64,000 nt of DNA from positions 2,356,001-2,420,000 of the forward strand of contig OY986946.1 in assembly GCA_963920595.1 (NCBI GenBank). Reading direction: 5' to 3'. The position numbers and the translations under genes are program-made. The notes below the pieces were generated by a model. That model saw nothing but the letters and a program-made list of their open reading frames with translations. It made no database searches and had not been told where the DNA came from. Positions 30,162 through 34,946 of this stretch are shown one piece after another. Source of the DNA: Eimeria praecox. Lineage: Eukaryota. Numbering within the stretch: position 1 is the first letter of the stretch; every line of letters begins with the position of its first letter.

Positions 30162-33100
30162 TTTACAATAAATGATATTTTATCATTTTCAGTCATCTAA
30201 GAACCCCAGAAGGTAATTTTGCGCTCTCTTTTGTTGCGCAGAATTTACCGGCTGGGTTCGCGCGTCAGTGTCAGTGCCTGCGGCCGGTGCAAATCGGCTG
30301 CAAATCCTTCTCCTTTTTTATAATTCTTTTTTCTATAGCATTTAAAACATCAAATTTTAAAAGATGGAAGAAGAAGAGGTGAAAAAGGATGCGGTTTCAC
30401 CGCTGAACTCAGCTGCGCCCATGCGGCCCCCACAGCCGCAGCCGACTGCTCGGCCGAACAGCAGTTCAGCATTGAAAGAGGGCCCTTCTGGAATTATAAT
30501 TGCAAAACCAAGGACCTCCAGCAGCCGCAAAGAAGGAAAGGACTCAGAAGATTCTCAAGACGAGGAGGAAATGCAGATCTGCGAGCCCGCCCCACACATG
30601 GATCTGCCGCAACAAGACCCGTCTCCATGCAGTGAGGAGATAGAAGTAGAGCAGATGCTAGATACGGCAACTGATAATCAGATAGTCCCAGGTTCGATTC
30701 CCAGCAGGGAAACGGACGCTGATAGTCTACAACAACAGCCAGAGGGATTGCCAGAGCTCGATAGCGATACCTCGATCTGTCCTGTGGATACAGGACAGCT
30801 CGAAGTGTCGAACTCTACAGCCGTAGCAGATACCGTAGAGGCTCAAATGGTGGAGGAAACGGCTCACGGCCCCCAAGCAGCAGAGGAGAGCTGCCCTGAT
30901 AATGGGCAACAGCAGCAAGGGGGGCAATCTACAAGCCCTGCGCGGCTCATCAGCTTCAGGGATCTTGTCCGCCAGTTTGTAGAAGAACGCAGAGCCAGAA
31001 ACCTTACACCAGACGGAGAGGGGGAGTCACAGCAGTTAGCAGATGGCAGCAGCATACAAAAGGACAGCGTAGCTCCAGTGTTCAACTGGGGACAAAGGAG
31101 CAACGCAAATTCAGCAGAAAACACCCCAGAGAGCATCAACAGAACGCCAAAGGGGGTGGCCACACAGCCTGTCTGCTGCCCCAACTGCAAACGTGTATTC
31201 AACTCCGCAAGGGGGCTCTCCCTTCATACACGTAGGGGAGGAAAAGGCAGCTGCGCTCTGAGGAGAAGAGAAATCATCAATGAATGTCAGAACGTGGCAA
31301 CCCCCGCGCCGTTGACGTTCCGTCTCAATAAGCGCATCCAGGAGGAAGCAGATGAAGATGTAAACGAATTGGGTGATAGACCCCGTCTAGCAAAAAGAAG
31401 AAGGGGACGAAAAGCACCTACACAGGGCCCCCCAGAGCCGACTCCTACAGAAATGGCAGGGGATCGTGCGATGGCGGGCAGACAGGCAACACCGGCAGCA
31501 ACAGCAGAGCAGCACAGGCCTACAACAACCGACGGAGAGGCGCTGCTCATAGATAAGTGGCCGGAGAGAGCTCAACAGCAGAGGACCGACCCGATCACGC
31601 GTCGAAGACCACTTCGAATACCTCGTCTAACAGCAGAAGCGGGCGCAAGGCTTACAAGACAACTGATGGAACTTGCGCAAACTACTGCTACCAAGATGGT
31701 CGACAGCACTTGGGAAGAAGTGGAAGCCGCAGTAGAAGGCTTCGCTACCCAGCTTTATGATGCGATTTGGTTTGCAGATAAGAACACTAAGGAAGCAAAT
31801 CAACGTGGCAAGAAGAACAAGCCCTCAACGAACACCGAAGACTCAGGAATCCGAAAGACACGCGTGTCCCCAAGGCAGGCTCAAGCACAGGAAAACGTCG
31901 ACAAGGCGTTGCAAGCACTCCGAGCAGAGGAGAGAGCCCAGCAGGGGAAACAATCTGGAGCATCGCTTGATGATAAACTGAAGAAGCGTGCCCTTGAAAG
32001 AAATCTACGAACTGCGCGTCGTCGCCTCATCATGATCCTCAAAGAAGAGTCAGCACAAAATCTCCAAGCACTCTACATGAAAGACAGAAAGAAGTGTGTG
32101 GAGCAACTACTAGCTGACGAAGATCAACCTAGAAGCCAAGATTGTCCCATCCAACTCAGTGAGCTGGAGGCACACTTTAGAGATCAGCACTCTGAGCAAT
32201 TAATTGACTCCACTTCTGATGTTGCTCATGAGTTCTTAGACCCTTTGGCTTCAGCTCCTAGTGGAGCGTGTGCGATTGATCTATACTTCACAGAAGAGGA
32301 TGTGCGTGCTCAGCTGCTAAAGAGCAACCTTAAGTCTGCAGCAGGGCCAGATGGGATAGGGTTTTTTGTGTACAAGAGGTTTGAAGAGGTGCTTGTTCCA
32401 GCCATGACCGCGATATACAACGCGTGTTCTCGGCATCGACGTATTCCAGAGAAGTGGAAGGAAAGCGTGACCGTTTTGATTCCCAAGCAGGGCGATCCTA
32501 ACGATGTGAAGAATTGGCGACCCATCAATCTACAGGACTGTATCTACAAACTTTATGCAGCACTGTGGGCCAGCAGGATTACGGACTGGGCATCACAGTC
32601 CGGGGTCGCCTCCAAGTCGCAGAAGGGATTCATGCCAGTGAATGGGTGCCATGAGCACCTGTTTCTTGCCCAAAGCATCCTCAACTCCACGCGCAGAGGC
32701 TCGAAACCGCTGTACATGACGTACTACGACTTGAAAAATGCATTTGGATCCGTTCCCCACGAGCTCATACACGTTGTCTTGAAGGCTCAACGGCTACCGA
32801 AGCACGTTCGTGAGATCATCATGGATCTCTATCAAGGAGCGAGCTTCTGCGTAGTGACGAAGGAGGGCTGCACAGGTCGAATTGAGAACCGACGAGGAGT
32901 GAAGCAAGGGTGTCCTCTCAGCCCGATCCTCTTCAACCTAGCCATTGAGCCTCTCCTGCAGAGATTAGCAGCTTGTGATGCAGGCCTCGAACTGCGTACG
33001 ACAGACGGGAGACCGCCTGTGAAGGTCTCTCACATGGCGTATGCAGACGACCTCAAGACGGTTGCTAGTACTCGAGCAGGAATTTCTACACTTCATCAAG

Positions 33101-34946: not shown

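What the first reader, a model, noticed from the sequence alone, without database searches (positions are those of the whole stretch)
30162..34946. Site-specific RLE retrotransposon inserted ANTISENSE into 28S, 8 nt from the canonical R2 site
Seen: the rRNA is on the minus strand and the RT-RLE ORF on the plus strand. In rRNA sense the empty site reads ...TATGACGT^TCTTAAGG^TAGCC; both copies have their 3' end at the first caret, whereas classical R2 inserts at the second caret (AAGG^TAGC) in the sense orientation. Established: R2 is co-transcribed with the rRNA by Pol I and nicks the antisense strand; planarian R5 is a known opposite-orientation 28S element but uses a different site. Inference: this enzyme nicks the rRNA-sense strand and primes from ...GACGT-3'OH, cannot rely on sense Pol I read-through, and may have converged independently on the H69-H71 region. 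It is a candidate new site-specific integrating system.
Basis: partly seen in the sequence, partly recalled or inferred. Interest (0 to 1): 0.95.

Follow-up and report, generated by a model that had tools for sequence, protein, structure and literature searches.

The report
Antisense 28S retrotransposon with spacer target-mimics
In the ribosomal DNA of a chicken coccidian parasite (Eimeria), an intact jumping gene sits backwards at one exact spot of the 28S gene, the mirror image of the well-known R2 site, and its relatives also sit in look-alike copies of that spot repeated in the spacer, so it likely homes in on one short DNA motif by a route independent of R2.

Summary
Confirmed, with corrections. 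The window is an Eimeria praecox-type rDNA array. An intact RT plus restriction-like-endonuclease element (30162-34946) and an identical 5'-truncated copy lie antisense in 28S at one 3' junction; 2 of 4 complete sites are filled. The site is 8 nt from the R2 nick and is its mirror image about the CTTAAG palindrome. The protein is not R2: no Myb, and it groups with oomycete Utopia-like elements. Relatives occur in six named Eimeria species. New here: the spacer just downstream of 28S holds 4-7 repeats per unit that match the target (up to 24 of 30 nt) on the opposite strand. One carries a 127-nt 3'-UTR relic of a relative at the same cut position, and two database gene models join such repeats to element pieces. 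So the target is likely a motif, not one locus in one orientation. Antisense 28S targeting is already known (planarian LIN24/26, 79 nt away), and this scan noted a similar family on another genome. I found no paper on this site or on an rDNA-targeting element in Apicomplexa; Repbase and Dfam could not be searched. Nicking and transcription are untested.

The parts
30162..34946 (+). Full-length RLE non-LTR retrotransposon, antisense in 28S; no poly(A) tail
30094..30161 (+). 68-nt direct duplication of upstream target (-70 to -3) at the 5' junction; the first target copy ends at -6
30162..30363 (+). 5' UTR, 202 nt; 30094-30370 folds better than 200 of 200 shuffles (z -4.0); no ribozyme identified
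30364..34749 (+). Single ORF, 1461 aa from the first Met
31177..31254 (+). Single N-terminal C-x2-C-x12-H-x8-C zinc-finger-like motif, present in 8 of 8 close relatives checked; no R2-type Myb follows
32479..33165 (+). Reverse transcriptase domain (Pfam RVT_1, residues 707-935, E 6e-32; YADD at 33040)
34153..34473 (+). CCHC zinc knuckle and PD..D..K restriction-like endonuclease motifs (RPD 34348, D 34399, EKY 34465)
34750..34946 (+). 3' UTR, 197 nt; two hairpins shared with the spacer relic
13106..16227 (+). 5'-truncated second copy, identical to 31825-34946; 4-5 bp of target lost; same 3' junction
48770..48799 (+). Empty 28S target (-27 to +3), cut between 48796 and 48797; second empty site cut between 62630 and 62631
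60199..61376 (-). Spacer subrepeat array with 7 intact target mimics (19-24 of 30 nt match to the 28S target); the first cut position is 176 nt past the 28S 3' end
46349..47541 (-). Same array in the preceding spacer, 7 mimics
27662..28843 (-). Same array, 6 intact mimics plus one with a 3-nt deletion at the predicted cut (repeat starting 27773)
11399..11855 (-). Shorter array, 4 mimics, no relic
60777..60903 (-). 127-nt 3'-UTR relic of a related element inserted in a mimic at the same cut position, 9 bp of target lost; also at 46927-47053 and 28237-28363

Best explanation
This is an intact, likely recently active, restriction-like-endonuclease retrotransposon related to oomycete Utopia elements that sits antisense in Eimeria 28S rDNA at the mirror image of the R2 site and is predicted to recognise a roughly 30-bp motif found both there and, on the opposite strand, in repeats of the rDNA spacer. 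Shown by sequence: one 3' junction at CCTTAAGA^A(C/T)G in two 28S copies and in one spacer relic; 5' truncation; small target deletions; a 68-nt upstream target duplication. Inferred from R2 biochemistry: the protein binds its own 3' UTR hairpins, reads DNA upstream of the cut (shared blocks ATGAC at -27, TTTG at -16, ACCTTAAGA at -9) with its single zinc finger and RT surface, nicks the strand that ends ...ATGACGT-3' in 28S (the rRNA-sense strand), and primes reverse transcription there; the second strand is cut or resected 2-9 nt upstream. Least certain: the source of the RNA. The 68-nt duplication suggests a transcript that began about 70 nt upstream in antisense 28S, so 28S copies would need antisense transcription, possibly directed by the 5' UTR; spacer copies lie in the Pol I direction and could be read through.
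For: Intact RT, zinc knuckle and RLE motifs; predicted model mean pLDDT 85.5, and its top 7 Foldseek hits are R2 structures. Two identical copies with one 3' junction and different 5' ends. The 12-mer ACCTTAAGAAYG occurs 26 times (2 in empty 28S, 24 in spacers) against 0.01 expected from shuffles; the 24 are copies of one repeat, so the fairer test is: for 3 of 3 repeats scanned the best match in the whole rDNA unit is the element's target (23-24 of 30), and 0 of 1000 shuffles of one repeat reached 23. The relic matches the 3' UTR at 83 of 125 columns, local score 54 against a maximum of 33 in 200 shuffles, and ends at the same cut. 2 of 343 proteins scanned carry spacer-repeat translation, both labelled E. 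praecox and joined to element pieces in the same direction; in P0102 the join falls about 10 nt upstream of the cut, as for the relic. Trees: clade with oomycete RNase H-bearing elements at 100/97 and 100/99. Upstream target duplications track the RNA 5' end in R2 (PMC3774820, passages).
Against: The current family fills 2 of 4 28S sites but 0 of 24 intact mimics here (Fisher p=0.016; the repeats are not independent), so mimics may be weak targets for it. The P0102 and P0124 joins come from gene models that may contain introns, and P0124 looks like a second family. Broken relatives in E. necatrix and E. brunetti lie on contigs of 70-225 kb, which may mean dispersed copies; their flanks could not be fetched. 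A run-X2 contig has a different sequence 5' of 30173 that matches nothing in the window. The 3' UTR structure has only two distinct sequences behind it, with 2 of 33 pairs compensatory, and the whole 3' end folds no better than shuffles. No nicking or expression data.
Confidence: 0.75

Rival explanations
1. The family is only loosely specific. It prefers rDNA but also inserts at many unrelated loci, like reptile Utopia or planarian LIN26, and the window shows only its preferred site.
For: Broken relatives on 70-225 kb contigs of E. necatrix and E. brunetti; 17 'LINE R2' calls in Eimeria genomes (PMC9141347); LIN24 and LIN26 have many non-rDNA 3' flanks; an unexplained 5' flank in run X2.
Against: All three 3' junctions seen at DNA level share the motif and the cut position.
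Confidence: 0.2
2. The element is strictly a 28S specialist. The spacer repeats are a host element (for example a terminator, fork barrier or antisense 3' ETS motif) or by-products of old target duplications, and they are hit only by accident.
For: 0 of 24 intact mimics hold the current family against 2 of 4 28S sites; the spacer RNA could pair with the 28S target region (-28.8 kcal/mol, no control); the element does duplicate upstream target.
Against: At least two, probably three, separate spacer insertions (relic, P0102, P0124) and a 3-nt deletion at the predicted cut of one repeat.
Confidence: 0.3
3. It is an R2 element that has flipped its orientation on the CTTAAG palindrome.
For: The cut is the exact dyad mirror of the R2 cut and keeps T-6, T-5 and A-3 of the R2Bm motif; R2 proteins are the best solved-structure hits.
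Against: AU test rejects one clade with R2-like proteins (p=1.4e-5); a Myb profile finds 4 of 4 left-out R2-like controls and 0 of 9 test proteins; +1 is A, which abolishes R2Bm cleavage.
Confidence: 0.02
4. The insertions are assembly artefacts or contamination.
For: Junction-spanning reads were not obtained; no listed piece spans the whole element.
Against: Base-precise TPRT-type junctions; relatives in six named Eimeria species; 6 runs hold half or more of the element's words.
Confidence: 0.03

Closest known systems
Utopia (oomycete lineage; NeSL clade), Kojima and Jurka 2015, PMC4640811
   Same: One ORF with N-terminal zinc finger, RT, zinc knuckle and RLE; no Myb; precise 3' and variable 5' junctions; nearest labelled group in the trees (about 33-40% identity).
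   Different: Targets 28S and spacer mimics, not U2 snRNA; lacks the RNase H of oomycete Utopia; host is an apicomplexan, not in that paper's host table.
Planarian LIN24_SM, LIN26_SM, LIN9_SM and R5 (R5/LIN lineage)
   Same: NeSL-clade RLE elements inserted antisense in 28S (S6 Fig.); the LIN26 3' flank also starts ACGT.
   Different: Sites lie 79 nt (LIN24/26) and 539 nt (LIN9) away; LIN elements end in T-rich tails; flatworm hosts. Their proteins were not available for the tree. R5 details are recalled only.
R2 (R2Bm, R2Tg)
   Same: Same fold family, same 28S neighbourhood, same 5' junction signatures.
   Different: Opposite strand and orientation, mirror-image cut, no Myb, separate clade; R2 was not reported outside animals in PMC5035012 (passages).
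Unclassified 'LINE R2' calls in Eimeria (PMC9141347) and split 28S genes of E. acervulina (PMC13107808)
   Same: Probably members or traces of this family (inference).
   Different: In the parts I read, neither paper gives a target site, an orientation or the identity of the intervening sequence.

Membership tests
RLE non-LTR retrotransposon | Single ORF with RT, CCHC knuckle and PD-(D/E)xK endonuclease | tested here: met
RLE non-LTR retrotransposon | Fixed 3' junction, 5' truncation, no LTRs | tested here: met
RLE non-LTR retrotransposon | Nicking and target-primed reverse transcription activity | not testable with these tools
   needs biochemistry
R2 | Insertion at TTAAGG|TAGC in rRNA sense | tested here: not met
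   antisense, 8 nt away
R2 | N-terminal ZnF plus Myb domain | tested here: not met
   Myb profile: 4 of 4 left-out controls found, 0 of 9 test proteins; hallmark per PMC13188248
R2 | RT groups with R2 | tested here: not met
   AU p=1.4e-5. The R2-like rows are unnamed proteins; one (P0040) was checked against solved R2 structures and all four show ZnF-Myb
R2 | 5' HDV-like ribozyme | tested here: inconclusive
   No Rfam hit; my descriptor found none but had no positive control
NeSL clade (Utopia/NeSL/YURE/R5) | RT phylogeny with Utopia-like elements | tested here: met
   100/97 and 100/99 with oomycete elements. Those rows are called Utopia-like from host names and RNase H upstream of RT, not from Repbase labels
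Utopia (strict) | 3' end flanked by U2 snRNA | tested here: not met
   flanks are 28S or spacer
Utopia (oomycete type) | RNase H upstream of RT | tested here: not met
   no Pfam family in the N-terminal 579 aa
R5/LIN | Antisense insertion in 28S | tested here: met
R5/LIN | Same insertion site as a described family | tested here: not met
   79 and 539 nt from the LIN sites; the R5 site was not seen in any call
R5/LIN | RT monophyly with R5/LIN proteins | not tested
   no labelled R5/LIN protein was returned

The most novel reading that the evidence does not exclude
Eimeria rDNA carries a selected array of target mimics just downstream of 28S. It gives this Utopia-derived element a harmless, sense-strand home that Pol I can read through, and it draws insertions away from the 28S gene: a host-transposon decoy or landing-pad system, around an endonuclease that converged on the exact mirror of the R2 cut without a Myb domain.
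Probability: 0.25. Interest if true: 0.88.

Novelty: new variant of a known kind. Interest (0 to 1): 0.68.

Why it matters
It appears to be an undescribed rDNA-targeting retrotransposon family in Apicomplexa, a phylum said to be poor in transposons. It shows a switch from U2 snRNA to rDNA inside the Utopia lineage. The 28S site and the spacer mimics together outline the likely recognition footprint, so one can test directly how an RLE protein without Myb finds its target and why unrelated elements converge on CTTAAG. An intact enzyme that would write on the other strand of the R2 locus is of interest for RNA-templated gene insertion, although positions +1 to +3 (ACG) differ from the GAG of planarian 28S, so use in animal cells is uncertain. 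It also offers an explanation for split 28S genes in Eimeria assemblies.

Tried and rejected
No whole genome is held, so no genome-wide junction census. No RNA holder listed among 23 runs. Read laying on the element: X2 covers all 30 bins; X21 and X12 hold mostly diverged relatives; X6 next to nothing; junction flanks were hardly shown. Viral contigs: no relative. Metagenome contigs: 80 loci kept, none close, none with rRNA similarity by blastn; Rfam on 12 of the 80 gave one tRNA and no U2. The mimic pattern was not found in prokaryote genomes or viral contigs, which is uninformative for a eukaryote. Rfam on the element and on one spacer gave no match at any family's cut-off; ARAGORN found no tRNA. 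HDV descriptor and hammerhead core: none (uncalibrated). A first regular expression for the zinc finger had the wrong spacing and found nothing; the corrected one found it. The gregarine protein P0228 falls in the same large clade but is unresolved, so vertical descent in Apicomplexa is not shown. The Fell et al. 2025 inventory is not held. The E. acervulina supplements give no coordinates for the split 28S. Table S6 of PMC9141347 was not found in the archive text (parts 4 and 5 of 5 read). Earlier-findings look-ups by sequence, place and spacer words were blank.

Full report
Setting. The window is a tandem rDNA array with rRNA genes on the minus strand and a unit length of about 13.9 kb. Both published ITS1 primers for Eimeria praecox match all four ITS1 copies; primers for three other species match none (primer table in PMC11067301, one passage; matches). 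Runs with small shares of the element include chicken gut and poultry litter; I did not lay these and draw nothing from them.

Observation. It holds. A 4785-nt element (30162-34946) with one intact ORF lies on the plus strand inside 28S. A second copy (13106-16227) is 5'-truncated and identical over 3122 of 3122 nt. Both end ...AAAATTTCC|ACGTCATAG; two other sites are empty. The 5' junctions differ: the short copy lost 4-5 bp of target, and the long copy carries a 68-nt direct repeat of upstream target. The host units also differ at many positions. These are two insertions, likely recent.

Protein. RT with YADD, CCHC knuckle, PD..D..K endonuclease and one N-terminal zinc-finger-like motif. The AlphaFold model of residues 264-1446 is confident (mean pLDDT 85.5) and its top 7 structural hits are R2 proteins, but at 19-24% identity. 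A Myb profile recovers 4 of 4 left-out R2-like controls and none of 9 test proteins, and an AU test rejects one clade with R2-like proteins. Two careful trees (31 and 25 rows chosen from the hits; near-duplicates and short fragments left out) place the family with oomycete elements at 100/97 and 100/99. Several of these have RNase H upstream of RT, the mark of oomycete Utopia (PMC4640811, parts 1-3 of 5). Relatives at 51-91% identity are annotated as hypothetical proteins in E. necatrix, E. mitis, E. maxima, E. praecox, E. brunetti and E. media; full-length unnamed relatives exist at 64-80%. A gregarine protein lies in the wider clade, unresolved.

The site is the mirror of R2's. In rRNA sense the target is ACGT^T-CTTAAG-G^TAGC. 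R2 joins after CTTAAG-G; this element, read in its own direction, joins after CTTAAG-A. It keeps T-6, T-5 and A-3 of the R2Bm cleavage motif but has A at +1, which abolishes R2Bm cleavage (PMC10499050, passages). Since the protein is not R2, this is convergence or coincidence; I cannot tell which.

New finding: spacer mimics. The 3' UTR matched the spacer. The spacer just downstream of 28S holds repeats with ACCTTAAGA^AYG on the rRNA-sense strand: 4, 6, 7 and 7 per spacer. Without gaps they match the 28S target at 19-24 of 30 positions from -27 to +3. For 3 of 3 repeats scanned, the best match in the whole unit is the element's target, and 0 of 1000 shuffles reach the observed 23. In three spacers one repeat is interrupted by a 127-nt relic of a related 3' UTR (83 of 125 columns identical; score 54 against a shuffle maximum of 33) that ends at the same cut and removes 9 bp upstream; the three are one old event copied with the unit. 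One repeat lacks 3 nt at the predicted cut. Of 343 proteins scanned, two carry spacer-repeat translation, both labelled E. praecox: P0102 runs from repeat into element about 10 nt before the cut, and P0124 from element into repeats. Gene models may hide introns, so these joins are suggestive only. Against the mimics being strong targets: the current family fills 2 of 4 28S sites and 0 of 24 intact mimics here.

Mechanism. Shown: junctions, domains, shared motif. Inferred from R2 biochemistry: 3' UTR binding, upstream motif reading, a nick on the strand ending ATGACGT, and TPRT. The 3' UTR and relic share two hairpins, with 2 of 33 predicted pairs compensatory from only two distinct sequences, which is weak. 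In R2, upstream duplications match the RNA 5' end (PMC3774820, passages). By analogy the parent RNA began near -70 in antisense 28S, which needs antisense transcription; a DNA-level template switch is the alternative. The 5' region is structured, but no ribozyme was found. Spacer copies lie in the Pol I direction, so read-through is possible for them. No expression evidence exists either way.

What is known. Planarian LIN9, LIN24 and LIN26 insert antisense in 28S (PMC4640811 S6 Fig., parts 1-2 of 3), 539 and 79 nt from this site, so the orientation itself is not new. PMC9141347 (part 1, passages and supplement parts 4-5) lists 17 'LINE R2' calls in Eimeria without sites; its Table S6 was not seen and may bear on this. 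PMC13107808 (parts 1-2, passages, supplement search) reports split 28S genes in E. acervulina without naming the insert. Passages of PMC13580325, PMC13188248, PMC5035012 and PMC10946416 name no such element. Ten literature searches were run; those aimed at this family listed no description of this site or of the mimics. Repbase, Dfam, Fell et al. 2025 and the R5 paper were not available.

Verdict. A real, intact, apparently undescribed target-specific family: a new variant of the NeSL/Utopia kind rather than a new class. The apicomplexan host, the mirror site and the spacer mimic array keep it well above routine: 0.68.

Noticed in passing
window 28993-40145: The rDNA unit that holds the full-length element differs from the other units at 18 LSU positions and at many ITS positions: a possible second rDNA type or an older silent unit.
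   Followed up: partly
window 48797-48816 and all units: Helix 69 region of this 28S reads GGACGT/ACGTTC in rRNA sense where the planarian 28S has GGGAGT/ACTCTC; this lineage-specific change supplies the +1 to +3 ACG of the target.
   Followed up: partly
window 30213-30337: The 5' UTR has one GT donor-like site (AAG|GTAATT) and a pyrimidine tract ending TAG: looks like an intron, which would be odd in a retrotransposon.
   Followed up: no
run X2 contig, 5' of window 30173: A different 42-nt 5' flank that shares the 11-mer TGGGTTCGCGC with the 5' UTR but aligns nowhere in the window: a variant 5' end or another locus.
   Followed up: partly
window 34930-34946: The element's last 17 nt contain CCTTAAAA, like the target's CCTTAAGA; the relic lacks it, so it may be chance.
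   Followed up: no
window 59420-59500: Two tRNA T-loop-like (box B-like) motifs GGTTCGATTCCC in the spacer; one 18-mer is shared with the element ORF at 30685-30702; no tRNA called.
   Followed up: partly
window 11200-12004: The first spacer is about 720-750 nt shorter than the others through loss of subrepeats, including the relic.
   Followed up: yes
P0228 and P0009: A gregarine (Lankesteria) protein and an unnamed Logan protein are further members of the same wider clade; their targets are unknown.
   Followed up: partly
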